A stretch of 63,394 nucleotides of DNA, filler included, from Chrysochromulina tobinii (Eukaryota), in NCBI GenBank assembly GCA_001275005.1. It is 9 parts of 9 records of this genome, joined end to end, with 100 filler letters (N's around TTAATTAATTAA, not from the genome) between each part and the next. Parts side by side here need not be neighbours in the genome. Positions count along the whole stretch, not along the records: positions 36,170 to 45,360 come from JWZX01000501.1; 8 more parts are not named here. One strand, 5' to 3'. How positions within the stretch are numbered: the stretch's first letter is position 1; the number at the start of each line of letters is the position of its first letter. Below the pieces are notes generated by a model. That model worked only from the letters and a program-made list of their open reading frames with translations, was not told the origin of the DNA and did not search any database. Of the stretch, positions 13,748 to 63,394 are shown in pieces. The translations under genes and the position numbers were made by a program.

Positions 13748-15863
13748 CTACCGGAACCGGGGGTCCGCGTTAGTTTGGTTCCCGCCGCTGCGGCTCATTC
13801 CGCCGCCCATCATTCCGCCGCCCGTCATGCCGCCACCGCCCATCATGCCGCCGCCCATCGGCGCACCGCCCATCGGCGCACCGCCCATCGGCGCGCCGCC
13901 CATCGGCGCGCCGCCCATCATTCCGCCGCCCATCATTCCGCCGCCCATCATGCCGCCGCCCATCATGCCGCCGCCCATCACGCCACCGCCCATCGGCGCG
14001 CCACCCATTATGCCGCCGCCCATCATGCCGCCGCCCATGCCGCCGCCCATGCCGCCGCTCATGCCGCCCGGCATGCCACCCATCTGGCCGGGCATGCCGC
14101 CACCCATCTGGCCGGGCATGCCGCCGCCTATTTGGCCGGCCATGCCGCCGCCCATTTGGCCGGCCATGCCGCCGCTGCCACCGCCGCGCGCGCCACCGCC
14201 CGATTGCCCCAACATTTGCATGAGCATGCGTTGCTGCGGCGTCCCCCCCATCGCACTGGCAAAAGCACCCATGCCGCCCATCCCCGTCCCCATGCCACCG
14301 CCCATCCCACTGCCCATGCCACCGCCCATCCCACTGCCCATCCCACCGCCCATGCCACCCATGCCTCCCATCTGCGCAGCGACCAAGCCGGGCCCTCTCA
14401 TCCCCATGCCAGCCATACCGGCGCACATGCTGCCTCCGCTGCCCGTCACCCCCATCGCGCCCATGCAGCTGCCGGCGGCGGCGGCCCCCATCCCATTCCC
14501 GGCTACGGCAGGGCCACCCTCGGCCGCCGGCGCCGCCGAGGCCGCGGGCGTGCTGTCCGCCGCGGCCGGCGGCGGCGCCTGTCGCACGGAGCGCAGCGGG
14601 TGCTCGGCGAGTGTCGGTATGGTCATGCCGTCGGCAAAAGGCACGGTGTCGCCACTCCCATCGCGGACGGACCAAGTGTTGTCATCGCTTGCAAAGACCT
14701 CGAGGCGCCCCTGCTCGTCCCACGGGATGCGCGTGCCGTCCATCAGAGGCAATCAATAGGCAATCACGAGGCAATGAACGACACTCAACTGCTCGTCCCA
14801 CGGGATGCGCGTGCAATCCATCAGAGGCAATCACGAGGCCATGAACGACACCCACCTTGGGGACGAGCTCCGCCAGCGACGTGTTGAGCGCCTCGAGCGT
14901 GCTCACCGTACGCCATCCGCCCGAACCAAGCGTGAGCTCGCCCAACGGGCGCAGGCGCACGATCTCTGTGGCATGCAACTTGACCACCACGTCACCCGTC
15001 CCTCTCTCCTGATCCACTTCGAGGCGAGACGAGGCGAACTGCCCCGGCTCGGGCGCGGCCATGCGCGTGCGCGCCACCTTGAGCGGCGGCTGCTGCTGGT
15101 GCTCCCCGTCGGCCGGCCTTTTCTCCGCCGTTGAGGCGGCCATTGAGGCGGCTGCGGCCGCGGCCCTCTCGGCCGCCGCCGCGCTGTCCGCGGCAGCCCT
15201 CTCGGCAGCGGCGGCGAGCTGGGCGGCCCTCTGCTCGGCTGCCTTCTCGGCGGCGGCCTTTGCCTCGGCCGCACGCATCTCGGCCGCCGCAGCCTCGGCT
15301 GCCACCCTCTCGGCCGCCGCCTTCTCTGTGGCCGCCTTCTCAGCCGCTGCTTTCCGGGCAGCCGCCTCTTCCTCAATGAGCTTGGCGACGGCCGCGTTGC
15401 CCAGCACTGTCGCGAGCTCGACCGCGCTCACGCCCGTCGGTCCGGGCTCGATTCTCGCGCCCGCCTTGAGCAGCGATGCGGCGACCGTCTTCGAGCCAGC
15501 GATCACCGCGTGCATGAGCGGCGACAAGCCATCCAGGTCTAGCGCATTGACGTCGGCGCCCGCGGCGATGAGTCTATCGACGCAACGCGTCGCATTCTCG
15601 ATGACCGCGAGCACAAGCGGCGTCTGGCCGCTCTCGCGCTCACGCACGTCCACGCCCGCACCCGCTTCGAGCAGCGCGATGACTGCGGCGAGGTGGTCGA
15701 AGCATGCGGCCGCACAGAGCGGCGTCCGGCCATCGACCGGATGGCCCCAGTCGACGCACGCTCCCTCGCCCACGAGCCGCGTCACGCCGTCTGCTCTCCC
15801 GTGGCGCGCCTCCCAGAAAAGTCCCTCGCTGACCGACGCCGCCGCGCCCGCCTCGGACGCCAT
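13748..15863 (-). CDS. Ankyrin-repeat protein with coiled coil, small globular domain and Gly/Met-rich tail (intron 14711-14855)
   Basis: Ankyrins GRTPLCAAA, GQTPLVLAV, GLSPLMHAV; a phase-0 GT-AG intron joins ORF 14682..15863 to ORF 13748..14752 (VPK|GRLEV); tail of GGM repeats ending DPRFR. Confidence 0.75.
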
Positions 15864-15902: not shown

Positions 15903-18634
15903 ATGGCGGAGGACTTTGAGGAGTTCGACGACCTGCCCGAGTTCGCCAACGAGCCCAACCGCGCTCTGCACCGCCAGCTCAAGGAGCATGAGAAGGCGGT
16001 GGTCGTCGTCGAGAATGAGCTCGTCGAGACCAAGGAGCGCATCGGCACCATGGAGGAGCACCTCTCGGCCGTCAACACGGAGACGCTGCACACCCAGCGG
16101 CTGATCGACGCGAAGGTCAAGGAGATCGAGACCGAGGACCACCTCAAGCAGCTCGCGGAGCGCGAGCGTGGCCGCTTCCAGGCAGAGTACAAGAAGCTGC
16201 AGGCGGAGCTGGCGGAGCTGCACGACAAGGTGAATGGCGTGCAGGTTGCCGTCTTCAAGGGCAACGAGAAAATGGACCAGTTCAAGCTTCAGATGAACTG
16301 GAATCAGGAGGAGCTCGAGCAGTGGGCGCTCGCGGCCCGGCAAAAGGAGGAGGACAACCTCGCGCTGCTCAAGTACTCGAAGGCGGACGAGGCGAAGATG
16401 AAGGACCTTTCGCTGCAGCTGGAGAAGATGCTTGCCGCCGTGCAGAAGAAGAAGGCGGAGCTCGAGGACGAGGTAACGGACACGCAGGCGGCGCAGATCG
16501 AGCTCGACAAGACCGCTGAGGACTTCCGCAAGCTGCACGAGGAGCGCGGCGAGCTGGTGTCGCAGTGGGAGGAGGCGGTCGTGTCAATGCAGAAGCGTGA
16601 CGAGGCGATCCAGCGCGCGCACGAGCAGTTCTCGGTCGCCAAGCGCCAGCTGCGCGAGAAGCAGGAGGTCCTCGCCGAGCGAGAGGCCTTTTTGCTCAGC
16701 GAGCAGAAGAACAACGTCGAAGTCGAGAACAAGATCACGGCGCTCGAGCGCTCGGTGGCCAAGAGCCGCGAGACGCTCACGAAGGCGAACATGCAGCTGC
16801 GCGAGATGGAGGACCAGGTGGAGACGGTGCGCGGCACGCTGAGCAAGGCCGCCTCCGAGATGGCGAACAAAAAGGTGCGGGTGGCCGAGCTCTCGGCACA
16901 GATTGACGAGCGCAAGAGGCGTCTCGACGAGGCGAAGAAAAAGCTCGCCCAAAACGAGCGCTCGCTCGAGCGTTCGCACGCGCACATGGGCGACCTCGAG
17001 AAGTCGGCGAAGCAGATGGACGAGATAAGCGAGCAGGAGAAGATTCGGCTCAAGCAGACGGACAAGGAGCTCGCGGTGCTTAAGGACAAGATGTTCAACG
17101 AGGGGCAGAAGCTCTTCGCGCTGCGCCAGCAGGAGGCGCATCTGCTCTCGGAGATTTCGGGAGCTCAGCGCGTGTCGCGCAACGCGAGCGCGAAGCTCAA
17201 GCAGCTCGACGAGCGCTCGCAGGGGCAGCGCGAGCTCGTGTACGCCGCCGACTTCCAGCTGCAGCTCATGGAACGCAAGGTGGCGCGCGCCTCGGGCGTT
17301 CGCTCGCCGATGGAGCAAAAGGAGCTGCACGCGAAGATCGCCGAGCTCACGGAGGAGTGCGAGCGGTACACGGCGCAGCACCGGATGCTCAACGACCAGT
17401 ACAAGCGGCTCATCAACGACGTCAAGCAGACGAAGCGCATCGCGCACGAGAAGGAGCAGGAGCTCGAGAAGCTCGAGGGCCAAATCTCCGAGACCGAGAT
17501 GAAGACCGACGCGGCCTCGCGCGCTTTGAAGAAGCTCATCAAGGAGAAGGAGCAGAGCATGGTGGCGTTCGACGTGCTCAAGCTGGAGGGGAAGCGGCTG
17601 CGCGAGCAGCTCAACGCCAAGGCCGACGAGGTCTTCGGGCTCACCAACCGCAAGTTCCAGCTCCAGATGTCGATGGAGGAGCGGCAGGAGGAGATCAAGG
17701 TACACCTCGGATACACCTCGGACGTGCTCGCCCTCCTCCGCCCTGCATGCACGCCCCAGCATGCACGTGCTCACCACGGCGCCATGTCCCTTCCCCACAG
17801 GTGCACTCGGACGTGCTCCGCGCGCAGCTCAAGGCCGCTGAGGAGGAGCGGCACGCGGCGGCGCGCGAGCTCGCGAACAAGCTGATCAAGGTGGAGAGGC
17901 TCACAAGCAAGTACGACATCATCTGCGGCAAGCTCGGCGACGGCGGCGACGGCGAGCACACGCAGGCGTACTATGTGATCAAGGCGGCGCAGGAGCGCGA
18001 GGAGCTGCAGCGGCAGGGCGACGAGCTCGACCAGCAGATCCAAAAAGCGGAGCGCGAGATCAAGGCGCTCGAGAAGACGCTGCAGCACCTTTTTGCCAAG
18101 AACGCGGGCTACAAGCGTTCCTTTGCGCCCGTCGAGCAGAACACACCGCAGTTCGAGCAGAAGGTGCTCCTAGAGGAACAGCACCGCGCCGCCCTCTCGA
18201 AGTACCGCACCCACCGGCTCGAGCAGAGCGAGCTCGAGGAGGAGATGGCGCGTATGGCCGACCAGCTCGCTGAGCTCGATGACCAGAAGGCGCGGCTCTC
18301 GACTCAGCTGATGGACCTGTCCGACCAGTCTGAGCAGCTCGAGGAACGCGCCGCGCAGCAGTTGACGAAGCTCGAAGGCGCCAAGGCGCAGGTGCGGCGC
18401 ATGCTCAACGAGCAAAGGCAGCGCGGTGCTGGCGAGGCGCTCGAGCTTGAGCTGGCCCTCATCGAGCAGCGCAGCACCAATCGAGCGCTCATCGAGGCGC
18501 TCACGGCGATCGCTGCGAACGATCCGAAGCTTGCGATGGCGCTTGAGACTAAGATGGCCCAGGCGGGCGTCCAGCCGCCCGCCTTCGACCCGGAGCTCGA
18601 CGACGACGACGAGGCAGGAGTGGACGTTGCATGA
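15903..18634 (+). CDS. CCDC39: Coiled-coil domain-containing protein 39 (axonemal ruler, FAP59); intron 17700-17800
   Basis: LPEFANEPNRAL, FKLQMNWNQEELEQW, QAAQIELDKTAEDFRKLHEER, QAYYVIKAAQEREELQRQGDELD; a phase-0 GT-AG intron joins the two ORFs in frame. Confidence 0.93.
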
Positions 18635-24178: not shown

Positions 24179-25387
24179 CTAGACAAGTTTCCGTCGGTGC
24201 TTGCCCGCAATAGCGAGAAGTTTGTCCGCGATAGTGTGGAGCTTCTCCGCGAGGGCCGTGGTAAGGTGGATGAAGTCTGACCACTGGTCATACGCGAGGC
24301 ATCCCGCCTCATGTCCCCCCTGCCTGTCAGGTTCCGCAGCCGGCACTCCACGTGGGCGCGGCATCTTGTCGAGCACCTCGGGGCCTGCCATGATTGTCCA
24401 CAGCCGGAGAGCACGGAAGGCCCGCCGGACCAAGCATGCCCCACTCCACACCTCGCGCAGCCCCCGAGACGTAGTCCACACCGATCGGGGGGCAGGTCGA
24501 TCGAGGACTACGATGCGATCGCGGTAGCTGATGACCGTTGTGTGAACCGCGTTGGGTTTAACCCTTGGCCCTGATCGAGCCACGCAGGCGGCTTTGCGCC
24601 CTTCATTGAGTATGCCCACGATCCACTTGAGGAATCCTCGCCCGTAGGCGAGCGCGAGTGTCCTTGCTGCCTCTTTGGACTCAACGACAATTTGCGCCCT
24701 AGGAGAGTCAGGAAGCCCGAGCATGAATCGTAGTGCCGCGTGGCGCTCAAGCGGCCCGAGCTGCGCCGCGTTGCCTGATAGGGCTGCGAGAGCATATTGT
24801 GCTTGTCTCGTACCAAAGTCACTCAGACGTTGACTGAGCCATCCTGCAGCACGCGCTCGGTAATCAGCGGCCTCGCCGACGCAGCAAGTAGTTAATGCGT
24901 GCCATCGGGATTGAGGCGCTCGTGCCGGCAGCGGACGCCATATGCCCGCCACAATCACATCACGCGCGAGGAAGCATCCCGTGCACGGACACGGCGCATG
25001 CGTCTGACACCACCATTCCCAGCTGCCTTTCTGAGCGTGATAAGCGCGCTCGCGCTCGCGCTGCGGGGGACCAATCAGAACGCGTTCGCGTACGTCGTCC
25101 CCGAGCCTGTCAGCGAGTAGTCCACAGCGATCTGCTCGGGCATCCAGTATACAGTCGCGCGTAGCTTCGGTGAGGAGTCTCGCCCGCACTGGTGATCGAC
25201 AGAACATTGGCCACGTCTCCGCGGTCTCGAGAAGGGTGAAAGAGGATGCGCCCGCAAGCTTACGAGCCATGATCGCCGCACACAGATCGAAGACAGCCCT
25301 TCCAACCCCCCGTTTGACCCCCGCTATGCGGCAGAGTGCGTGTAAGGAGGGCATGAGGTCGATTGGTCGGATAGATGCACTAAGCAT
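24179..25387 (-). pseudogene. C-terminal retroelement segment with CPCxxC...H...C motif
   Basis: Follows RNase H after a frameshift near 25385; HAPCPCTGC...RWHALTTC. Confidence 0.55.
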
Positions 25388-26291
25388 GGATTGAGCCGTC
25401 GGCCGCCTCGTTGGGGGTGATGCCGTCGTGGCTGTGGACGTGGACGTAGAGCACGGCGCGGTGACGTTGCTCGAGGCGGGATATGTTGCCCAGCTCGTTG
25501 TCTCGGTAGCGTGCCGTTTTGGACGACACCGTGCGCCCGGGGAACGCGTGGCCTGCTTGCATTCCGCTAAGGCAGTCGGTCACAAAAACAGTGACCGTAC
25601 CGACGGTGGTGGCAAGTTGGTCGTGAAAGGCGGCAAGTTCGGCCTCGTACGAGTGGCGCTCAAAGGTGTCGGCGAAGACGTCGAGCTGCCCTCCCACGAC
25701 AGTACGCCCTAGGACCTCGGCAGCTACTGAGACGCAAGCCCGACTAACCACTTTGTTGCCCGAGTCAGGGTCGACTGCTTTGGACCCGTCCGTCGGGACA
25801 AAGTGGGTGACTGGGTACTCGGATTCGAGAACCAGAAGCTTGTCAAAGACGAATCGGCACTCCTTGGCCTTGAGCTCCTTGTGGGCGCGTGCGCAAATCT
25901 CGTGACATTCCCACCAGAAGCGCGCGGCTAAGGGGCAATCAGGGTGAAACGGGTTACCGCGAAGCCGGCCGGAGTCGTCGAAAGTGTAAGCAAGGCGGAC
26001 CCGACATAGCCACGCCTCCCCCCTTCCGATCCACACTTGATGGTAGCCCCCTTGGGTCCGTTGCCTCCACTCCCGTTCGTCCGGCTTCAGCTTGGAGTCG
26101 TACGAGAAAATGACTCGGCGCGTAGACCCGTCGAGGTCGAGTTGAGTTGGTCCCGCAGTGCCGTGAGGAAGGGGAGCAGGTGGTGCTGAGGTGCCGAGAA
26201 GGGCGGAGAAGGCCTCCTGCAGCTCTCCGGCGCGCGCTCCGTCGAGTTCCCGTCCCGACTTCTCTATCGCGGTGTGCCCATCTCTATGACT
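25380..26291 (-). pseudogene. RNase H domain of the retroelement
   Basis: D-E-D-D catalytic set: TDGS (25782-25793), YEAELAA, VTDCLS, NEAAD. Confidence 0.8.
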
Positions 26292-26964
26292 CAGAGCGCA
26301 ATCCTCATTGCTTACCCCAAAGAGGTTCGGTCTGCGGTCGGAAACCATCTCTTCAGGGCGGACGCTCTCAGTCATGATGACATCTACGCTCGAGCCAAGG
26401 TGCTCCTAAGTGCGATTGAGAATGGCGCGTCGTGTGAGTCTTGGCTTCGACAGCAGCCCCCAGGTCAGGTGCGCAACTCATCCTTACTCACGAACATCTG
26501 GATCTCGCCTTCTACTACCTTCAATTTGGCGGCGTTTGCGCGCGAGCAAGTGGCTCGAGCGAGGTGGCTCGCTGGCGCTCAGCCCCACCTCATCTCCTTC
26601 GTCGAGACCTTAAACGGCCTCATGCAGGAAGGGGATCGCGACGCCGAACTCACGGCCAAGTCGTACGTACTGCAAGACTACGAAGGTGCTTCGAGGCGGG
26701 CCAAGGTGGAATGGGCTCGACGCACGCAGGCGCAAGTCATCAACTTGCAGCACGACGGCGTGCGCATGCGCTTCCCCTTCGACTTGCACCTTGAGACGGC
26801 ACTTCTACGGATTTCGGACGCGTGCTCGGCTGCTCTTGGGTACAAGCAGGTAGTCTGCGTTAAACAATCACCTAAGGGCAACTCGCTGCTCGATCGCCTT
26901 CAACCTTCAATCCTACCTCCCGCCACCCCTCAGCGCCCCCCTACAGTGTTCACCCCTTCTGTGA
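26286..26964 (+). pseudogene. Inverted segment encoding the C-terminal half of a family-A/TV-Pol-like polymerase domain
   Basis: RAKVLLSAIENG (motif B-like), SYVLQDYE, INLQHDG (26745-26759, motif C-like). Confidence 0.65.
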
Positions 26965-27340
26965 CTCTTGACTGCCTGCTGAGCTGTCGGAAAACTGATG
27001 GCGTCATCCAAGTCGTGACTGACCTCCTGGAGAGCAGCGTCACGTACTAGGCGAGAACAAGTGAAAGGGTCGGGGCCGAGGGCGTACTCACGGCTGTATC
27101 GAACGAATCCGGCGGCGACGAGCCTCGCGCCGCGCTCAGAATGCACGTAGGATATGGGTAGACTGCGAAGGTGCGAGCTCGACGGGTGTTCCTTGCTAGC
27201 CGCGAGAAGCCCTCGCACTTCGGAAGCTACAGTGGTGCCGGGGTGACGGCCAGGCACTCCGGCATTTGGGGATAGTAGGAGAGCGCGGAGGGCGGTGGCG
27301 TGAATGACGCATTCGATGGTGGTGGTGACGGGCCCACGGC
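26962..27340 (-). pseudogene. N-terminal half of the family-A/TV-Pol-like domain
   Basis: SREY...SRLVRDAAL...HDLDDAISFPT (27003-27014, motif A-like); frameshifted from the RT ORF at about 27260-27360. Confidence 0.6.
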
Positions 27341-29503
27341 GGCGTTCAAGCCACGCGGACCAATCGTGAAGGCGGTTCTGGCGGTCGCGTAAATGGATCC
27401 ACGCTCCATTGCAGCGGACGGGGTGTCTGAGCTATCGCCGACGAGGATGGCTGTAATCGCTTTGGCGTAGAGGCAAGCGGACCAGAAGTTGTCGACCGCC
27501 GTGCAGGTTGATCCGCTGGGAAGGTTCTTGAGCACTGCAGGCGCAAGCTCCCCGTACTTTCGAAGGTGGTACTTCAACAGAGCCCGGTCTATCATCCTGT
27601 GAAAGGAAAGACCATGCTGGTCGTCCGTAAAGTTGATAAAGGCGCTATCGGGCAATAGCTGGATGGCTGCCCGCAGGGTATTGACGTCGACGGTCACCCG
27701 GAGGAGCGCTGCAAGCTTATGACCGCCGTCTCCACTACGCTTTCGCTGGGCAAGATCGGCGAGTGGCAATTGTCGGACGAGCCCATACTCTGCAGGGGCG
27801 TAAGGAGGGATGATCCCATCGGCAGCATCCGCCATTGCCCACCCCCGTCGCCCTGGCACAGGCGCTACATGGCACGCAATGATAGCCCCAAGGAGGACTG
27901 CGAGTTCACGCCGAGCCTCACTCGCCCCGAGCTCGACTGCCCGTGGGTGCGCTGAAAGGATGTCATCGACGCCTAAGAAATCCCCATGAGTCTCGTCGCA
28001 CAGGTTAGCGAGTTCAGCTATGCCGCCAGCGGCGAGTATGGGGCAGAAAGTGACGCCCTTGGCGCGTAGCCGCGAGTAGAGGGGCCCGTGCCAAAGTCCG
28101 ACCCAGTCCTCAGGGTATCCCGGCCAGCGCTCTGCGCGGAGGGGGGACCATTCCGCGAAGTGACAATCAACCAGCGGGAGATAACCAGCACCAAGCTGAC
28201 AAAGGATCCACATAGGGCGCTCGATGACGTTGTCCAGACGGAGGAATTCAGAGACGGGGCCAAGGAGGATGCCTTGAGGCCCGAAGGTAAGCTGGCGAAG
28301 GCCGTAGGTCCACAGAACTCGAGCGACGGCATGGTGGGCACGATCGGCGGCTGGTGTATGGACGGGCGATGCCAGTGCGTTGACAAGAGTCATGGCCGCT
28401 GCCGCCATCAAGGCCGGCCATACGTGGGCAGTGCCGTAGCCGGAGACGAAGGCAGCGGGGCCTGCGACGTTGACAAAGAAATGCGCCAGGTCGTCGTTGG
28501 CCGGCGCAGTAATCCCTCCCGGTTGGGCGTGGAGTTGGATGCGTGGCGATGAGTACGAGCGCCGCGGGCCCTTGACTCCCGCGCCTTGAAAACATTTTCG
28601 GCTCGCAGGTCCCAACCTTCCCTCGATATCTTCAAAAGATCCCCCGAAGCAGGTGCCGTAGAAGAAAGCATTCCCGTACACGCCCAGACCAGCACACCCG
28701 GTGGCTATTCTCCTGCTCGTGTGAGAAGTCGTAGCTTGAGCTCCACATGCCGAGATCTTTGTTTTGAGGGTGGCGAGGCCAATATTGTTGTGGTTTCCAT
28801 CCATGCGCGTCGCCATACCGCAGTACAGATAGTGTTCGCTGATGAGAAGGTTGGGGATGAGGCGAGGGGGGTCATTCGGCCGAAGCCCCGCAATGAAGAA
28901 GTCCTTTTGCGTTTCAGTGGGGACAAGGGTTCCGTTGCGTGCTCGCTTGTACTCGAGCGCCTGCACCACCGTCTTGTCCTTGCCCTTGATGTTGAGCTGA
29001 CAGTCAGTTATGCGGCTCCAGATGGACCAGAAAACCGTAACTCTCTGAAGGAAGTCAGCGTCCCCCGTAGCGTTTGCCGCGTCGTCCACGAAAACCAACA
29101 TGCCTAATTCTAGTCCAGCTCCGTCCGGTGCGAAGGCCGAGTAGCCGGAGACCTTAAGCTCAAGTGCCTGAGCGATAGTGTCCATCATGATTTTACACGC
29201 TTCGGGCGACCCTTGCGCACCCTGGAGGAAGCCGCGCAAGATTGGGAATGGGTCGGTCGCACCAAACGCCGTCTCATACCGCCCTTGCGCCACGCCGTGC
29301 TTCCAGTTATCCACGAGCCCTCGAAGAGCCCGTAGCGCAGCCTCAGGAACACCAATGTGACGCATTGCCATAGCGGCGGCCGTGCGGGAGAATGACATGA
29401 AGCACTTCGTGAGGTCGACATAAAGGACATAAAGAGGTTTGCGCCGTGCGAGGGCGTCGTCGATGCACAGATGTAGGGCGAATGCTTGCTCAGTGCATCC
29501 TCG
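27227..29503 (-). pseudogene. Reverse transcriptase (LINE-type) region
   Basis: Frame open from a stop at 29504-29506 through LYVDLTKCFMS, QGAQGSP, FVDD, LNIKGKDK and YLYCG. Confidence 0.85.
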
Positions 29504-32622: not shown

Positions 32623-32919
32623 TTGTGAATGTGGGCTCCCACGCCGAGCGTGGCGCCGGGCCGACTTGCCTGTGGGGAAAAACGGGGAGGAGTGCAAGTT
32701 GAGAAGAGCGTGTTGAAGCCCGAGAGGAGTACGAGAGGAGGTAGTCCATAAACTCCACGTCAGTCCGCTTCACCTGGTTGTACATGACCTTCGTCGTGAA
32801 TGTGAGCTGTCGCTCCTCGCGTGGTGCAAATGGCATTCCTCCATAGTAGTTCTTGAGCCAGACCAAAGGCTTCGTTGCCTTATCCTTCTGTATCGCGCCT
32901 GCCTGCTCGTGTGGGGTGA

Positions 32920-41427: not shown

Positions 41428-44400
41428 AATCGTCGCCAAGCACCGGGTAGGCCAGGCGCAAGGCCTCCAGCGTCCACATCGATGGCTCGTACGCCACCGC
41501 GGTGAGCGAAGACGCGAGCGTGCGCGCAATCTCGAGCTCGAGCTCACGGCACTCGACGAGCTCGGCAATCTGGTGCTCCGGCTCCGGGCGCATGGTCGCG
41601 CCGCAGCCGCCGAGACGCAGCGGCCGACCAGTGCCGCACACGAAGCGCTCATACACGGGCTCCCAGCGCGCGCGCTGTGAACAGTCGCACAGGGGTGTGA
41701 GCGAGAATGGGGGCACGAGGTGCTCGAAGGTGCACCCGCCCGCGGACTGCTCACGCATGCAGAACCAGCGGCCGCGCTGCCAGTCCGCGCGCAGTCCGCA
41801 ATGGCACAGCACTGCAGCTTGCATGCGTAACCGCTTCGACGGCCTCCCTGAGCGAGCGCTGTGTCGGGCGCACCAGTCGAGGTTCGGCTGCACGTACCAG
41901 GGCAGAGCGGGCGCCGTGGTGAGCGCTGCGGCGGCCGACGAAGCTACCGGTACCGCCGTTGACGAAGCTACCGGTACAGCCGTTGGCGCTGGCGCCCACG
42001 ACGGCGCCGGCGCACCCTGGGGCGCCCACGACGGCGCGCCGTGGGACGCTCCTGCAGACGCAGCACCGGGCACGCGCGAGATCGGCGCCCGCCACGGCGC
42101 CCCCTCAGAGGCTGCATTGCCGTTGGCGATGCCCACCACGGCGCCTATTGGTTCCACAGACGGCGCCTCGGTGGCTCTCTTGCGCTTGCCGTTCGGTGCG
42201 GACGCGTCGGGCGCTGCGTCGGGCGCTATGGCGCCCAAGGCGGAAGAAGACGCGCACGACAAGACCGTCGAGGGCTGCAGGGGGGTCGGCCAGCTGGAAG
42301 CCTTCACAGCTGGAGCCATGCCTTCACAGCTGGAAGCCGCAGGTACAGTGATGGCTCCAGCTGGGAAGGCCATCACGGGCTCCAGCTGTGAAGGCACGGC
42401 TCCAGCTGTGAAGGCCATCACGGGCTCCACCTTGACGAAACTCACCCCTTCCGCTGACGCCGGCAGCGCTGTCGCGAGCGGCGGCTGCGGCTGCGCTGGC
42501 CTCACGCACGGCGGCACGCTCGTCTTTGGCGTCGTCGTGGGCGGCAGGTGGAGCTGCACCACGGACGCCGCCGAGGCTGCGGCGGCCAGGACGGCAGCGG
42601 ACGGGAAGGAAGCGGCGGCCGCGAAGGAGAGGGCGCCGTACTGGGCGCAAGAGTCGCTGGAGCGGTTTCGGTCCGTGGTGCTGCTGCTGCTGCTGAGGCT
42701 GCGCTCGCTACCAACGGTCGGGCAGCGGCGGGCCGCCGTACTGGGCAGCGCCGTACTGGGCAGCGCCGTGCTGGGCAGCGCCGTGCTGGGTAGCGCCGTG
42801 CTGGGCTCGCTACCAACGGTCGGGCAGCGGCGGGCCGCCGTAGGCGCCGGGGCGGGCGCCGCGCAGGCTGCTGGTGCAGCAGCCGTCGTACTGGGTAGCG
42901 CCGTACTGGGCGGCGCCGTACTGGGCAGCGTCGTACTGGGCAGTGTTGTACTGTGTGGCGTCGTACTGGGCGGCGCCGTACTGGGTTGTGCCGTACTGGG
43001 CAGCGCCGTACTGGGCAGCGCCGTACTGGGTAGCGCCGTACTGGGCAGCATCGTACTGGGCAGCGTCGTACTGGGCAGCGTCGTACTGAGTGGCGCCGTA
43101 CCGGGCAGCGCCGTACTGGGCAGTGCCGTACTGGGCAGCGTCGTACTGGGCAGCGTCGGCCGCCTCGGCGCCGCCGCAATCGGCTTCGAAAGCGCTCGCG
43201 GAGGGCGCTGTGTCGGGCACGTCCAACCGACCAGTGAGGACCACTTGCGCGCCGGCCGAGACCCGAGGCGCTCAGCACGGCGCGCCTCGGCGATCGTTCT
43301 CGGTCGGCGCTCAGGACGGCGCTCGGCGGCGGCGGCGGCGGCGGCGGTGGCTCCGAGCCCCGCCGCGCTCGCCACCGCGCTCGCCACAGCGCTCGCCACC
43401 GCGCTCGCCACAGCGCTCGCCGCCGCGCTCGCCGCCGCGCTCGCCGCGACCACTGACATGGGCGGCCGCAGCGAGGGCACATGCAAATGTGGCAGCGTCG
43501 CCTGATGACGTGTCCCCAGCTCTATGCGACCATCGAAGATCGATGCGTCGGCGACGCGAAGGTAGCCCGCGCGCCGTCCGCCCCCCTTGGCCTCTCCCCC
43601 CTTGATGCCGCCCTCGCCCCCCTTGATAGCGCCCTTGTCCTTCCCCCGCTGCTCCCGCTGCTGGCGCCGCTGCTGCACGCGCTGCCGCGCCGCCTCCACC
43701 GCGTCCTCGTCCTCGTCCTCATCCTCCGCCTCCTCAGAGTACTCCTCCTCAGTCGCGTCACAGTCATTCCGCCGCGGGTCGTCATTGAGCTCACAGACCC
43801 AATGCTCGGAGAGCACCTGTGAAGAGAGGGGAAGGAGGGGGAGGAGGGGGCGCCGTGGTGAGCACTTGGAGGGCGCCGTGGTGGGCACTTGCATGCCGCC
43901 GCATCGGTCCGTGTGCTCGCAGATCCAGAGGGCGCCGTGGTGGGCACCTCGAGAGCAGCCGCCTCATCCAGCCCACTCGGTAGCTCAATACGGCGCCACT
44001 TGGCACAGCGCTCGCACTGCACCCACGTGCACGCCTCCTCGTCCTCCGCTTCGTCGGCTTCGTCACTCCCCGCCTCGCCGCGCCGCTCAGTACGGCGCTG
44101 CTTCTTCTGCCGCTCGTCGCCCCCACCCCCTTGGTCGCCCCTACGCTCAGGACGGCGCTCCTTCTTGTCCTTGTCCTTGTCCTTGTCCTTCTCCGCCTCC
44201 TTGTCCTTTTTATGCTGCGGCCCGGGCGACTGCTCAACCAGCCGGCTCACGCCCTGCCGCTGCCGTTGCTGCCCGATCTCGGGCAGCGAGATCTCGAGAT
44301 CGCGAACGAGCTTGTACACCTCGCCCCTGCCGCGACCGGCCTCACGGGCGCCCGACACGGCGCCCTCCCGGGCGCGCTTGCGGCTCGCGTGCGCCCGGCA

Positions 44401-45360
44401 CGGCGCCCTCACGTGCAGCGCGAGCCGGACCGCGCCCCGCTCGCGCACGGAGACCTCCGCCGCCACGTGCGCGCGTGGTGCGCCCGACACGGCGCCATCG
44501 GCGCTCGCCTCGTCATCGACCGCCATCGGGACGGCCGTACCTAATTAGGGAGAGCGGGGCGCCGTGGTGAGCACATGCATGCAAGGCAGGTCATCAGTCC
44601 ATCGGGACGGCCGTACCGGTACCATACGAAGCGCCGTCCTGAGCGGCGGTGCGCTCAGTACGGCGCGCTCGGGCCGCCGCCGCGCGCTCGACACGGCGCT
44701 CGACCGCGCGCAGCGACGTGCCCACGTAGACCGCCCGACACGGCGCGCTCTCGCCCGTCGATCTCAGCTTGAGCTCGAGCCGCACGAGCGGGCCTTTGGC
44801 GCCCACGACGGCGCCCCCGGGGCCACCACCGCCATCGCCATCGTCACCGCCACCTTCAGCGCCTCCGAGGGTGCGCTCCCCTCCGCGGGTACGCTCGGCC
44901 TTGCTGCCGCCGTCGCCGTCGCCGTCGTGCCCGTTAGCTGAGGCTCGGCCATTATCTCGGCCATGATCTCGGCCATTATCTCGGCCATCATCTCGGCCAT
45001 TATCTCGGCCATTATCTCGACCATCATCTCGGCCATTATCTCGGCCATTATCTCGGCCATGATCTCGGCCATCATCTCGGCCCGCCGCCCGCGCCGATGC
45101 GTCGCGATGCATGCGCGCATACTCGAGCGCGCCCTCCTCCGCCGTCGAGAACCATCCAAGGATGAGGCGTGAGTAGCGCGCCATGTACGGCGTGTGCTTA
45201 CTGGCCGTCTTGTGCAGCTGGAAGGAGACCCCCATGAAGCCAGACGAGTTCGCCGAGCGGCTCAGTGTGAGTCCTTCCGAGGCCGCCTGCGCCAAGGCGG
45301 CCTCGGCGCGGCGGCGGTACTCGTCCGGATCGAGGGGAGGCATACTGGGATCCATCGACG
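41426..45360 (-). CDS. AP2-like + zf-CW + ELM2-like + GRF-type zinc-finger regulator (introns 44541-44616, 43817-43947; possibly 5' partial)
   Basis: EGLTLSRSANSSGFMGV...LGWFSTAEEGALEYAR; spliced WVQCERCAKWRR...LE|VLSEHWVCELNDDPRRNDC; IELGTRHQATLP; CHCG...WFC...CTF and CDCS...FVC...GC. Frames join across both introns. Confidence 0.8.
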
Positions 45361-48799: not shown

Positions 48800-50785
48800 T
48801 CACGCCGAGCCGTCAAGCAACTGATCTCGGCGATTCGAGCCGTCGCCCGCGCGCAGGATGGGAACGCTGCCCGCGACGACGCTCGCGAGCTCCTCGGAGG
48901 CCAATCGCTTGGCCGTTGGCACGAAGAGGAGCGTCACCAGCATGCCGAGCACGCTCACGCCTGCACAGATGAGGTAGACGCCGTCGAGCCCGACGACGTC
49001 CATGATCACCTCGAAGCTGGCAGAGCCGATGAGTGCGCCAACCTTGCCCAAGCCCGCGCACACGCCGAAGCAGGTCGATCTCACCGCCGTTGGGAAAATT
49101 TCGGTAGGCAGGGTGTACCTGATCAAGGAGGCCATCCGAGGCACTCAGATGGCACTCAGATGGCACTCAGATGGCACTCATAAGCTATGCGTGGCCATCA
49201 AGAGGCCATCAAGAGGCCATCAAGAGGCCATCTGGCACAATCAGCCGCAATCAGCGTACGTCGACACGTTAGGGCCAAAAGCGAGTGAGAATTCCAAGGC
49301 ACAGAAGAGGCCGAACTTGAGGCCACTCGAAGCCTTGGCGAGCACCGCCGCCGCCAACGCCACGCAAGTGGCGGTCTGCAAAAGGAACCCATACGCCTGC
49401 AGCGTTCGCCCCGACCAATAGTAGAGGGCGAAGATGGCGAGAACGACCCCCGGGATGCCCGTGCACATGAGCACAATATCGTGCCAGCAGTTGTCGTAGA
49501 GCGACTCAGACTCTCCGAAGACCGCGTTCACGATGACCACCTGACGAGGGAGCCAATCAGCCGCCATCAGCCGCCATCAGCCGCCATCAGCCGCCATCAG
49601 CGACCCTCAGCGACCATCAGAGAGGAAAAGCGAGCAAGCCTCCCTAATCTGGCAACCATGAAGAGAGCCGATTCAAGGGAGGAACTCACCTTGTTGACAG
49701 ACGAGCCGTAGCAGACAAAGTCGTACAGGAACCAGCTGAGGCCACAACCCGTCAATCTCCCGAGGAGCTCCGGATGATCTCTCACGACGCGCAGAGGGCC
49801 ACGCTTGTCGGCGGTGCGCGCGCTCACGTACTCATGACTTTCGCTCGAGTAGTACGTGAGAAGCATCACAATGAGCGTGGGCACTGCGGCGAAGAGGGAG
49901 GTCATCAGAGAGGTTATCAGAGGCCATCAGAAGTCATCAGAGTTCAGCAGAGGTCAGCAGAGGTAATCATACGCCATCAGCGACCATGAGACGCACTCAG
50001 ACGCACTCAGACGCACTCAGACGCATTCAGAGCCGACCTCACCTGCGCCCAGCCCAAGCAGCAGACGGAAGTCGAAGCTCGTTGCCGCCATGTGCTCGGC
50101 GCCGTAATTGTCCTTGCCGCCGATGAGCAGCAGCAGCAGCGCCACCACGTACGGCAGCATCGAGCCAGGTGTCTGCCAGAAGAAGCCTGCGGGAAGCGGC
50201 GGTCATCACTGGCACTCAGAGGTCTTCAGAGGTCCTCAGAGGCACTCAGAGGTCCTCATAGGTCCTCACAGGCACTCAGAGGCACTCAGAGGTCCTCAGA
50301 GGTCCTCAGAGGTCCTCAGAGGTCCTCAGAGGTCCTCAAAGCCAGATGTCTGCCAGAGAAAGCTTGTGGCGCCCTCGACGACGAGTTTGGGCTCCGAGGC
50401 CATTGGGGGGCACTCAGAGGTCACTCCAGAGGGCACTCCAGAAGGCACTCAGAGGTCACTCCAGAGGGCACTCCAGAGGGCACTCAGAGGGCACTCAGAA
50501 GGCACTCAGAGGGCACACAGAGTGTAGACCGAGGGCCATCATCAGAGGGCCATGAGCGCCATCATCAGAGGGCCTTCATCAGAGGGCCTTCACACCTTTG
50601 GCCACCTCGATGGATGGATTCGGCCCCTTCGAGGCTGGGGGAAGCAGGGGTGGCTCCTGCGTCGTTGTGGGCGCTCGGACGGCCTCATCTCGCTCGTTCT
50701 CGCGCATCATGGTAGCCGTCAGCGGGTACTTGCCGCCCACGCCCACGCCCAGCACGAAGCGGCACGCGCCCATGACGCTGTAGAT
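48800..50785 (-). CDS. MFS inorganic phosphate transporter, PHO84/Pht1-like (5' part not resolved; introns 50187-50595, 49884-50042, 49541-49689, 49119-49259)
   Basis: RFVLGVGVGGKYPLTA, WFLYDFVCYG, FGPNVSTYTLPTEIFPTAVRSTCFG...GKVGA. All four GT-AG introns give in-frame joins. Confidence 0.88.
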
Positions 50786-51697
50786 CTAACGCGTGGACGC
50801 AGGGCCAAACGCGGCGAGAAAGAGAGCAAGAGACACCATGGCTCCACTCAACAACCAAAACACAAGCACCCACGTACCCACTAATTCCCCACAGAGAATT
50901 CCCCACAGTGGTTACTGACTAAACCTGACTAAACTAACAGGTACTTCCGTATAAGGGATGATTTGGCGCACTGAGCATGCACATGCCCCGTGATACTGCG
51001 CGACACCACCGTTCCGTTGCACGAAATCGTGGCGGCCAGCAACCGCGTGCCAGTTTGCCCGATGTCGGTTGAGGATGCCAGCAACGCTGAGATGGACGGC
51101 GAGGACGGCGGTGACGAGGTTGACGACCACGACCTGGAACAGCTGCAGCACATCTTGTGCGAGNNNNNNNNNNNNNNNNNNNNNNNNNNNNNNNNNNNNN
51201 NNNNNNNTTAATTAATTAANNNNNNNNNNNNNNNNNNNNNNNNNNNNNNNNNNNNNNNNNNNNTCTCGGATGACCCCTGATGACCACTGACTTGACCACA
51301 ATCAGTGGCAATCTGAAGCCATCCGCGAGATCGCACCTGTGAATGTGAACGGGAGGCGGGAGCGAGGGAGGTGGTGACGGCGGCTGAGGAGATGGAGGCG
51401 GAGGCGGCGGCGGCGAAGGCGGCGGTGGCGACGGCGGCGGAGGAGACGGAGGCGGAGGCGGTGGCGGTGAAGGCTCCCCCACCGCCGCCACCGCCCTCGC
51501 CACCTCCGCCCTCGCCTCCGCCCTGCCGCTGCTGTCCCAGCTCGTCGCCGACCCGCGTCTTCTCCAGCAACTCTCGGAGCGCTGGTTGCACTCGCTCCAA
51601 GATTTCGCGCCGAGCTGGCGAGTCCGGTGACTCTCATCACTGCTCAAGCTTGCGAGAGCGTTTTCACCTTGCGCGCTTCGTTACACGCCTTGAGGCG

Positions 51698-51880: not shown

Positions 51881-53416
51881 GTGAGGCGCTCAACGTGGCG
51901 AGATCGACATGACGAGGATCGGCTGCGCTGGACCCAGTGACATTGAGTACGTCTCGCTCCCACGATTTCGCTCTCCTCGCTTCACGAACTCGGGCACCGG
52001 AGGTCAGCATCATCCAAAAAGTATAGAATGAAACCATGAGCAAGGGTGGCAGCGGAGACGTGTTGCACGCCGGTGTGAAACGAGATCCGACAAAATTTTC
52101 GAACTCCCGCAATGCGGGACCCGGGCGGCGTACCTGACGGCGGCGTCGAACATGTTCACACAGACGCGCCCGAAGGCGCGCCCCCATCAGGGAACGCAAA
52201 TTTGCACTCGACACCGTCGCAAGACGATGGTGTCGAGCGCTCTGCTCGAATTTCATCATGAAGTTCGGCGCAACGCTTTCCTGATGTCCTAAACACGTTA
52301 CTGATGCGTGTACCTCCGGCCCAAGCATGTACGAGGTCGGTACAATACTCGTTTGACCGGTCCCAAACGCCCACAGCGGACCCTCGAGCACGGCGGGCGC
52401 GCGGCCCTCTCGACTCAAGGTGGCCGGCTAGCGAGCGTCGCCGTCCACACGCCGCCAGCGCTCGCGCACGCATCGCCGTGCCCGCGCTTGCTGCTGGGCT
52501 CCTCCTTGCCCCCCACGAGGATGCCTACCAATGCGTCAGAACCTGTCCGGGAGCACGGGGATGGGGTGAGGCGTGTGGTTCGCTCAGCGCGCTCTCCTCG
52601 CTTCGCTCTGGTACCCGCTAGCCGCTGCCTCCTCGTACAACGCCTTGCAACGCGTCGACCTCAGAGCCCGTACGAGAGCGGCGTGCCGCGGCATCGCGAA
52701 GTGGCGCGAGCGCTGCGACAAGATACAAAAAACACAAAGAGACGAGGACCCCAACCCCCCCCCCCTCACCCCTCCCTGCCAATGCCAAAAATTTCGACTG
52801 AACGAAGACCTCTGGAAAGGGCTTTTTTCCGGTGCGGGTGGAACGAGTATAAAAAAAGAGAAAAAGAGGGGAGAAAGAGGCGGGGGGTATAGGATTCAGC
52901 CGGTAAAGTCGGTATGTGTAGGATTCAGCTGTTTTACTCTGGCTTCGTAGGATTCACACACAAAAAACGCAAACCAAGCGCGTCGCTTTCCGACAAATGA
53001 ATGAATGCGGGTCGTTAGTAAAGCGAGCGCAAGCCGTACACATGGCCATGGGCGCCTTTTGCCGTGTCTTTGTCCGGCTTCTTCTCTCCATGCAGCGCTT
53101 TGATGCGTCAGCTAAGCCGTGAGTTCGAGGGGCTCTGGCACGCTGAGCTCTGCTCGAATTTCACCATGGAACTCGGAGCTACGCTTTCCTGAGGTGGAGC
53201 GCAAGCTGTACAAGGCCATGAGCGCCTTTTGCCGTGTCTTTGTCCGGCTTCTTCTCTCAATGCGGCGCTTGGATGCGTCACCTTGTGCAGAGCCTTTGTG
53301 TGCGTGCCTCTTCCAACAGGGTCGGGGCTGCGGCTGTAACCGCGCGGGAAAGTATACTCTTCCCTATCCCTTTTATTCAATGTGATAACCGAAATTTGAC
53401 GACGCATCAAAAAAAC

Positions 53417-60049: not shown

Positions 60050-60365
60050 CCGAGGGCAATCAGAGGTAATCAGAGGGGATAATTTGCAATCAGAGGCAAT
60101 CAGTGGCAATCAGTGGCCATTCTGAGACAATCTGTACAGAGGCTCCTGAGAGGTCAGCAGAGGCACTCAGAGGGCACTCAGAAGCAATCATAGGCAATCA
60201 GTGGTTAATCAGTGGCAATCAGTGGCAATCAGTGGTTACTCAAAGGCACTCAGAGGCACTCAGAGGCCATCCGTGGTCATCAGAGGCACTCAGAGGCACT
60301 CAGAGGCACTCAGACGCACTCAGAGGCACTCAGACGCAATCAGACGCAATCACAGGCACTCAGCA
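60050..60365. repeat. 10-bp GAGGCACTCA/GAGGCAATCA satellite
   Basis: Same unit family as in the transporter introns. Confidence 0.9.
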
Positions 60366-63045: not shown

Positions 63046-63287
63046 AGTACTGATACACTCAGTCGCGTGCTCGGCCTCGAGCGCTGGCGGGCATCACGAG
63101 TTGCGTCGGCATCGCCGTCGGTGCGGCGGGCGCGCGGCCTCGGCGGCGCCTGCCCCCAGCTCTAGCTTAAATCGCGCCGTACTGAGATACACTCAGTCGC
63201 GTGCTCGGCCTCGAGCACTGGCCGGCATCACGATTGCGTCGGCATCGCCGTCGGTGCGGCGGGCGCGCGGCCTCGGCGGCGCCTGCC
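63028..63287. repeat. Tandem duplication of ~130 bp
   Basis: CTCTAGCTTAA...GATACACTCAGTCGCGTGCTCGGCC...GGCGCCTGCC occurs twice. Confidence 0.85.
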
Positions 63288-63394
63288 GCAGTGGGGGCGA
63301 GCGCTCACATTCGGTTCACCTGCCGATGGCGCAGGAGGGAATCCCCCTTGCGCTTGCCAGCCGACGTAGAAGGCGGTTCGGCCTCCTTGTGGCT

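What the first reader, a model, noticed from the sequence alone, without database searches (positions are those of the whole stretch)
44523..44617. Intron flanked by a perfect 19-bp direct repeat
Seen: CCATCGGGACGGCCGTACC occurs at 44523-44541 and 44599-44617, so the 76-bp intron starts with the same GTACGGCCGTCCCGATGG as the next exon. The 57 bp between the repeats hold the 17-bp motif and the pyrimidine tract leading to the acceptor. The neighbouring intron has a decayed echo (TGGATCTGCGAGC versus exon TGGGTCTGTGAGC). Known: DNA-transposon TSDs are short and fixed, whereas long variable ones fit target-primed retrotransposition or staggered-break repair. Inference: a very young intron made by a splice-acceptor cassette.
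Basis: partly seen in the sequence, partly recalled or inferred. Interest (0 to 1): 0.75.

Follow-up and report, generated by a model that had tools for sequence, protein, structure and literature searches.

The report
Algal introns with long duplicated flanks
A 76-base stretch that interrupts a gene of the alga Chrysochromulina starts with an exact copy of the exon that follows it and ends in a short sequence shared with many other introns built the same way, which likely marks a mobile cassette that makes new introns while duplicating 12-48 bases of the gene, a far longer and more variable footprint than the 3-9 bases reported for known intron-making transposons.

Summary
An exact 19-bp repeat flanks a 76-bp GT-AG segment whose removal restores the reading frame. 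Its own junction had no RNA cover; the neighbouring family intron is spliced in 3 of 4 RNA runs. The host matches Chrysochromulina tobinii.

The intron is one of a large family. In 75 of 106 cassette copies (0 of 300 shuffled pairs) the intron opens with a copy of the next exon, 12-48 bp long and often imperfect, which supplies the donor; a shared 3' cassette supplies the acceptor. A second cassette leaves the same footprint, and two loci stack both at one site. One member is absent from relatives.

'Very young' is not supported: 23 of 71 repeats are perfect, and a perfect one this long has probability 0.34.

Likely mechanism: target-primed, microhomology-guided copying into staggered nicks, probably by a LINE-type reverse transcriptase (0.5); DNA break repair is the main rival. 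A 2025 introner survey lists zero families for this species. This scan found the family before on another contig (e1-2577349).

The parts
44541..44616 (-). 76-bp spliceosomal-type intron (GT...AG, phase 1)
   Evidence: Removal restores the frame; junction not covered by RNA contigs
44599..44617 (-). Upstream repeat copy: last base of exon 1 plus the first 18 intron bases; supplies the GT donor
44523..44541 (-). Downstream repeat copy: G of the AG acceptor plus the first 18 bases of exon 2
44583..44598 (-). 16-nt 5' extension of the cassette; other loci share 3 to 20 or more bases of it, a nested truncation ladder
   Evidence: short high-depth RNA unitigs of other copies end at 44598
44557..44582 (-). 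Cassette core (GCATGC plus the 18-nt motif); holds a CTCAC whose A lies 27 nt before the intron end, a likely branch point (consensus recalled, not tested)
44541..44556 (-). Pyrimidine tract and acceptor of the minority CTAATTAG type (most copies end CCCCACAG)
44617..45360 (-). Upstream exon of the host gene (open at the contig end); no Pfam hit
43948..44540 (-). Exon 2 of the host gene; a CW-type zinc finger begins here and continues in exon 3 (both halves below the Pfam cut-off)
43817..43947 (-). Neighbouring 131-bp family intron with three motif copies and a patchwork exon copy; spliced
   Evidence: Joint in 3 of 4 RNA runs; sequence
41429..43816 (-). Exon 3 of the host gene (low-complexity S/T/P repeats)
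17700..17800 (+). Third family intron in the window, in CCDC39, with a stuttered imperfect exon copy; present in close strains, absent at this site in relatives
24182..29503 (-). Fragmented LINE-like retroelement (reverse transcriptase, weak RNase H); candidate enzyme class only, no sequence link to the cassette found

Best explanation
The segment is a 76-base GT-AG insertion whose removal restores the gene's frame, one of a large family in Chrysochromulina built as [copy of the next exon's start] + [shared 3' cassette], likely made when a short non-autonomous template was copied into two staggered nicks 12-48 bases apart by target-primed synthesis, probably by a borrowed LINE-type reverse transcriptase. 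Inferred steps: (1) one strand is opened at a donor-like site, G|GT(G/A)(C/A)G; (2) the free end pairs through a few bases with the AG|GT end of a cassette-bearing template and is extended through acceptor, tract and core; (3) synthesis drops off at a variable point in the 5' extension and jumps, often through 1-6 bases of microhomology, onto the overhang left by the second nick; (4) fill-in duplicates the target, so the upstream copy begins with GT and serves as donor while the cassette gives branch point and acceptor, and splicing returns the original coding sequence; (5) selection keeps products of about 57-99 bases, so long copies pair with short extensions; (6) afterwards the intron's 5' part keeps changing by slippage and further insertion at the same site. 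Shown: the anatomy, the family-wide variable repeat, splicing of one member, absence of one member in relatives. Inferred: the nicks, the template, the enzyme and the order of events.
For: Repeat anchored at both splice sites in 75 of 106 copies vs 0 of 300 shuffled pairs; unanchored, 79 of 102 vs 15 of 2000. Length 12-48, median 28, no fixed mode; intron 57-99; copy length anti-correlates with filler, rho -0.67. Nested 5' truncation ladder on one extension: 3, 4, 5, 6, 8, 10, 14, 16, 20 bases. Overlap of 2 or more bases between exon and cassette core at 6 of 18 direct joins (p about 0.004 against a rough 9% expectation). A second cassette shows the same footprint in 6 of 12 vs 0 of 146 controls. 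Two different cassettes stacked at one site in L097 and L128 need an outside template. Variable 5' truncation, template jump and downstream second nick giving a duplication are described for non-LTR elements (PMC2881922 passages). A LINE-like reverse transcriptase is in the window. CCDC39 member: relatives whose gene calls look unspliced (P0015, 78% identical, contig up to 28.8 kb; P0019, 58%) cross the site without insertion. Neighbouring member spliced in 3 of 4 runs.
Against: No autonomous partner or master copy found: the window's retroelement shows no cassette at its presumed 3' end and no whole genome was available. No poly(A) tail, no Rfam match at gathering level and only four weak unrelated matches at E up to 1, no fold above shuffles for this cassette (z 0.06-0.33). 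Several copies (L005, L009, L011, L066, L070, L110, L132) lack the acceptor end yet carry long repeats, which a strictly fixed 3' end does not predict; the template could also be the opposite strand. Patchwork switching between exon copy and cassette (L088, L090, L032, the neighbouring intron) fits repair polymerases as well. The same CCDC39 intron differs by 12 bases in its 5' part between strains, so part of the variability arises after birth. The codon-position test could not separate errors at birth from later drift (35 of 86 at third positions, p 0.17). This intron's own splicing and its absence in any strain are not shown.
Confidence: 0.5

Rival explanations
1. DNA-only break repair: staggered double-strand breaks are patched by a repair polymerase (polymerase-theta-type end joining or abortive strand invasion) that finds AG|GT microhomology in any existing cassette intron, copies 40-60 bases of it and rejoins. 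No transposon protein or RNA is needed.
For: Patchwork switching between exon copy, cassette and nearby repeats, and more insertions than deletions in the copies (16 vs 6); chimeric cassettes such as this one, with core, extension and acceptor from different modules; copies cut at either end; staggered-break repair is the model for Daphnia intron gains, including repeated gain at one site (PMC4202315 passages).
Against: In Daphnia the exon-intron repeats are 4-12 bp and the passages read name no shared source for most inserts; here one cassette recurs in over a hundred loci with one end nearly constant (54 of 71 end CCCCACAG) and a one-sided truncation ladder.
Confidence: 0.27
2. An ordinary MITE-type introner with a short fixed duplication made the introns; the long repeats came later through local tandem duplication of [exon start + cassette] and deletion back to the donor.
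For: Identical tandem units exist (L050, L055, L065, L073, L115); the 5' part of the CCDC39 intron differs between strains; the second cassette's 10-base units begin with up to 7 bases complementary to its acceptor end, which could be a relic inverted repeat; marine Chrysochromulina MAGs have introners with 4-bp duplications (PMC9860276).
Against: No fixed-length class: exact matches in the 31 low-scoring loci scatter from 2 to 11 and many are interrupted longer copies; the main cassette shows no inverted ends beyond CTG/CAG and no fold above shuffles; two extra events would be needed at about three quarters of all copies; stacks of different cassettes each carry their own long copy (L097, L128).
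Confidence: 0.13
3. Old introns whose 5' halves were overwritten by repair templated on spliced mRNA (an aborted intron loss): the exon-1 end copies across the junction into exon 2, then rejoins the old 3' half.
For: Copies start exactly at the junction and carry errors.
Against: The CCDC39 position is empty in relatives; the next exon starts with a donor-like GT in 65 of 71, which needs a birth mechanism anyway; it does not explain the shared cassette.
Confidence: 0.06
4. The segment is not spliced (a disabling insertion) or is an assembly artefact.
For: No junction contig was seen; no homologous longer protein was found (weak searches).
Against: 12 DNA runs hold 97% of the region's words (all flagged as possible sources, so not independent); exact frame restoration; the next intron of the same gene is spliced; a public gene model splices the CCDC39 member at the predicted site.
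Confidence: 0.04

Closest known systems
Introners that carry the 3' splice site and take the 5' site from the duplication (Symbiodinium ILEs; Polarella glacialis classes 4/5 and 6/8/10; bioRxiv 10.1101/2020.10.14.339549 parts 1-2 of 4 read; PMC9860276 passages)
   Same: Acceptor in the element, donor from the duplicated target, splicing restores the coding sequence.
   Different: Their duplications are fixed at 4 or 8 bases per class (3-9 overall) and the Symbiodinium elements have inverted ends; here 12-48 bases, variable, often imperfect, with no inverted ends in the main cassette and a variable 5' boundary.
Chrysochromulina sp. marine MAG introners (PMC9860276 Fig. 2C legend and supplement rows)
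   Same: Same genus label; short introns of 75-108 bases in the rows seen; no inverted repeats in the figured family.
   Different: 4-bp duplication, element carries the donor and co-opts the acceptor, the reverse of this family. C. tobinii appears only in the 2022 list of screened genomes and has 0 families in the 2025 survey (PMC12130899).
Daphnia pulex neointrons from staggered break repair (PMC4202315 passages)
   Same: Exon end duplicated at the far end of a new intron; repeated gain at one site; young introns keep changing by internal duplication.
   Different: Repeats 4-12 bp; in the passages read the source of the inserts is a standing puzzle; here a common cassette recurs genome-wide.
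SINEs and other products of non-LTR target-primed reverse transcription (PMC2881922 passages)
   Same: One constant end, one variably truncated end, microhomology at the join, duplication from a downstream second nick.
   Different: No tail, no recognisable small-RNA head, only 40-60 bases, no partner LINE identified, and nearly every copy found sits at a donor-like GT.

Membership tests
Introner (broad sense) | Many sequence-similar introns at unrelated sites | tested here: met
   106 distinct motif hits with an acceptor pattern in 136 loci, two of them probably chance; similarity is confined to the 3' part
Introner (broad sense) | Spliced out, restoring the coding sequence | tested here: met
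   Neighbouring member spliced in 3 of 4 runs; this member by frame only
Introner (broad sense) | Positions gained: absent from relatives | tested here: inconclusive
   One member (CCDC39) absent in relatives, inferred from protein-level gene calls; this member untested, searches empty
MITE / TIR DNA-transposon introner | Fixed short target duplication (3-9 bp) | tested here: not met
   12-48 bp in 71 loci, no fixed mode; short cases scatter 2-11
MITE / TIR DNA-transposon introner | Terminal inverted repeats | tested here: not met
   Main cassette: variable 5' boundary, no fold above shuffles; second cassette has a possible 7-base relic
SINE / non-LTR target-primed insertion | Variable-length target duplication | tested here: met
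SINE / non-LTR target-primed insertion | One fixed end, other end variably truncated | tested here: met
   54 of 71 end CCCCACAG; truncation ladder; exceptions cut at the acceptor end
SINE / non-LTR target-primed insertion | Head derived from tRNA, 7SL or 5S RNA with an internal Pol III promoter | tested here: not met
   No such Rfam match in 10 loci at E up to 1 or in the window at gathering level; short degenerate heads could be missed
SINE / non-LTR target-primed insertion | Poly(A) or repeat tail shared with a partner LINE | tested here: inconclusive
   No poly(A); 10-base repeat arrays lie at the variable end; the one LINE-like element in the window does not share them; genome not available
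SINE / non-LTR target-primed insertion | RNA intermediate and dependence on reverse transcriptase | not testable with these tools
   RNA runs are unstranded contigs
Staggered-break repair introns (Daphnia type) | Short (4-12 bp) exon repeat with an insert of no shared origin | tested here: not met
   Longer repeats and a shared cassette

The most novel reading that the evidence does not exclude
There is no dedicated element at all: the 3' end of any existing cassette intron (as pre-mRNA) is the template, primed through its own AG|GT junction at a donor-like nick and joined by an error-prone jumping polymerase, so introns breed introns, swap modules and restack at the same site. That would be a self-feeding intron-gain route, distinct from cut-and-paste introners and from reverse splicing, that explains why two unrelated cassettes leave one footprint and why similarity-based surveys score this genome as having none.
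Probability: 0.2. Interest if true: 0.87.

Novelty: new variant of a known kind. Interest (0 to 1): 0.66.

Why it matters
How spliceosomal introns are gained is a long-standing question, and the large surveys count only introns that resemble each other end to end. Here about half of each intron is a copy of its own downstream exon, which is probably why the 2025 survey lists zero families for C. tobinii; intron gain of this kind may be undercounted elsewhere. The alga is culturable with a small genome (59 Mb, PMC4580454 passage), so the route can be tested by population sequencing and mutation accumulation. The long repeats also predict exact intron loss by recombination between the copies and tandem stacking by unequal exchange, giving a turnover that can be measured.

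Tried and rejected
Junction evidence: six RNA runs in two layings gave no listed contig bridging this intron's two exons; no evidence either way. Presence/absence of this intron: two protein searches for longer homologues of exon 1 and exon 2 found nothing at E up to 0.001, weak because of low complexity. All-against-all comparison of the 136 loci found only identical or near-identical pairs, none with an empty site. No genome was available for a census or a search for a master copy. Viral contigs: 3 motif hits, none with cassette anatomy. Adenine-specific mutagenesis as in diversity-generating retroelements: rejected, rates A 7.9%, T 9.1%, G 4.5%, C 2.2%. Errors at birth versus ageing: no third-position excess (p 0.17), no overdispersion (73.4 on 70 df), and copies with an imperfect motif differ from their exon at 15 of 279 bases, like the exact-motif set; undecided. 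A recalled likeness of the core's antisense strand to the start of SRP RNA or tRNA got no Rfam support. A telomere-like reading of the CTAATTAG acceptor (telomere repeat recalled) was not tested. Literature: nine searches showed no paper describing this family; the motif was absent from the supplements searched (file cut when stored, 12 of 14 files); the 2022 SI appendix PDF, bioRxiv supplements and most subscription papers could not be seen.

Full report
Observation. The 19-mer is exact at 44523-44541 and 44599-44617 and is maximal. The host gene reads on the minus strand. Bases 44616-44541 form a 76-base GT...AG segment; the upstream frame meets two stops inside it, and cutting it out gives one open frame to the next intron. 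The repeat covers the last exon-1 base plus 18 intron bases on one side, and the acceptor G plus 18 exon-2 bases on the other. The rest of the intron is a 16-base extension, a 26-base core and a 16-base tract with acceptor. One such repeat appeared in 30 shuffles of the window.

Host. The window is nine contigs joined by N linkers. A CCDC39 gene on the first contig is 100% identical over 600 residues to a protein that a source names Chrysochromulina tobinii. No whole genome was available. The interrupted gene has a CW zinc finger split by the neighbouring intron, both halves below Pfam's cut-off.

Splicing. In RNA contigs the neighbouring family intron (43817-43947) is skipped, with GT-AG ends, in 3 of 4 runs. 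For the 76-base intron no listed contig of six runs bridged the two exons, so its splicing rests on the frame. A public gene model cuts the CCDC39 member at the predicted site.

Family. These gave 150 hits, 136 after removing duplicates; 106 had an acceptor pattern within 45 bases and enough flank, two of them (L126, L136) probably chance. An alignment anchored at a candidate donor and at the acceptor scored 12 or more in 75 of 106, against 0 of 300 shuffled pairs; an unanchored version gave 79 of 102 against 15 of 2000. I dropped four tandem cases; two more (L050, one L073 unit) slipped through the filter. In the remaining 71 the copy is 12-48 bases (median 28; the score cut-off excludes shorter ones), 23 are perfect, and there are 90 substitutions in 1822 bases, 16 insertions and 6 deletions in the intron copy. 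Introns are 57-99 bases. Copy length and filler length trade off (rho -0.67). The target consensus is G|GT(G/A)(C/A)G, and 54 of 71 end CCCCACAG. The sample is biased to copies with an exact motif; 11 of 15 flanking copies with 1-3 motif mismatches show the same repeat.

Cassette anatomy. The acceptor end is nearly constant; the other end is variable. The extension carried by this intron is shared by other loci over 3, 4, 5, 6, 8, 10, 14, 16 and 20 bases, and several other extensions recur in pairs. At 18 direct joins between copy and core (two tandem units set aside), 6 overlap by two or more bases (rough test). Some copies switch from exon into cassette and back (L088, L090, L032, the neighbouring intron). 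Several copies lack the acceptor end but still lie between long repeats. This intron's acceptor is a minority type also seen in L029, L036, L090 and L117. No inverted ends, fold or Rfam family were found.

A second cassette. Introns ending CCCTCATCAG and built from 10-base stutter units occur in the flanks; 6 of 12 have the same anchored exon copy, against 0 of 146 controls. L097 and L128 stack the two cassettes at one site, each with its own exon copy; in L097 the two intron copies share one difference from the exon and the upstream one has a further change, which suggests successive events. Identical tandem units occur in L050, L055, L065, L073 and L115.

Gain and age. For the CCDC39 member, read-through gene calls from strains differing at 9 of 600 and 4 of 434 residues contain the same intron, one with a 5' part 12 bases longer. 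Of 28 further hits examined (P0003-P0030), 22 cross the site with no insertion and 6 do not reach it or are read-through calls; many may be transcript-derived, but P0015 and P0019 retain intron-like text elsewhere and so look unspliced. This points to gain in the C. tobinii lineage, for one member and from protein data only. It also shows that the 5' part changes after birth. A perfect repeat is no sign of youth: probability 0.34 at the family rate, 23 perfect against 16 expected, no overdispersion. Whether the differences arise at insertion or later is undecided (35 of 86 at third codon positions, p 0.17, in 67 of 71 loci with an inferable frame).

Mechanism. Long variable duplication, one constant and one truncated end, and microhomology at the join are what target-primed reverse transcription leaves (PMC2881922, passages). 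The window holds a fragmented LINE-like element, so the enzyme class exists in this assembly, but I found no sequence tying it to the cassette. I put 0.5 on target-primed synthesis with a borrowed reverse transcriptase, 0.27 on DNA-templated break repair, 0.13 on a short-duplication MITE with later rewriting, 0.06 on mRNA-templated overwriting of old introns, and 0.04 on no splicing or artefact. The first two share the core claim, insertion of an outside cassette with a long variable duplication at birth (about 0.77). The strand of the template is not settled.

Known systems. Reported introner duplications are 3-9 bases (PMC9860276, passages and supplement rows) and fixed per class in dinoflagellates (bioRxiv 10.1101/2020.10.14.339549, parts 1-2 of 4). 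The figured Chrysochromulina MAG family has a 4-base duplication and carries the donor. Non-LTR-derived introners are about 5% of classified families in the 2025 survey (PMC12130899, passages), which lists 0 families for C. tobinii. Daphnia neointrons have 4-12 base exon repeats (PMC4202315, passages). A general survey reports 4-30 base repeats near intron borders (PMC11782384, abstract only). The C. tobinii genome paper mentions introns once, as an average (PMC4580454, passages). Nine searches found no description of this family; unseen supplements could hold one. An earlier agent of this scan reported the same family on another contig (e1-2577349); my reading was formed before I saw it, and it led me to the dinoflagellate preprint.

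Verdict. Real; an introner-like system that fails the MITE tests and meets some, not all, SINE tests: a new variant of a known kind. Interest 0.66.

Noticed in passing
window 24182-29503 (-): Fragmented LINE-like retroelement: reverse transcriptase (Pfam RVT_1, E 2e-6) followed by a weak RNase H match (E 0.019); nearest Atlas clusters are labelled diatom and oomycete.
   Followed up: partly
window 14711-14850 (-): Probable intron of the 10-base-repeat type in an ankyrin gene, with an internal tandem duplication that includes an exact 26-bp repeat 78 bases apart; acceptor not determined.
   Followed up: partly
window 49850-50000, 50220-50520, 51264-51330, 60050-60350: Free-standing arrays of the same 10-base units that build the second cassette and this cassette's extension; whether they lie in introns is unknown.
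   Followed up: no
window 41910-41926 (-), 42129-42145 (-): Motif matches with 1-2 mismatches inside the open frame of exon 3 of the host gene; the gene is rich in the motif's 8-base end, so these may be coding repeats or an exonised relic.
   Followed up: no
window 32670-32780 (-): Probable ordinary intron ending CCCCACAG without the core motif and without a visible exon copy, a possible negative control.
   Followed up: no
window 44538-44549: The acceptor sits in a 10-base palindrome (CCTAATTAGG) that spans the intron-exon border; the same acceptor type occurs in L029, L036, L090, L117.
   Followed up: no
window 53052-53260 and 63052-63290: Long imperfect direct repeats (170 and 133-134 bases apart) with no cassette; probably plain tandem duplications.
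   Followed up: no
L040 vs L089, alignment columns 210-225: Two near-identical loci (98%) differ by a cluster of 9 substitutions within 16 bases about 60 bases downstream of the cassette, suggesting a templated patch rather than point mutation.
   Followed up: no
L005, L009, L011, L066, L070, L110, L132: Cassette cores lacking the acceptor end but flanked by long imperfect repeats; they may show the unselected insertion products.
   Followed up: partly
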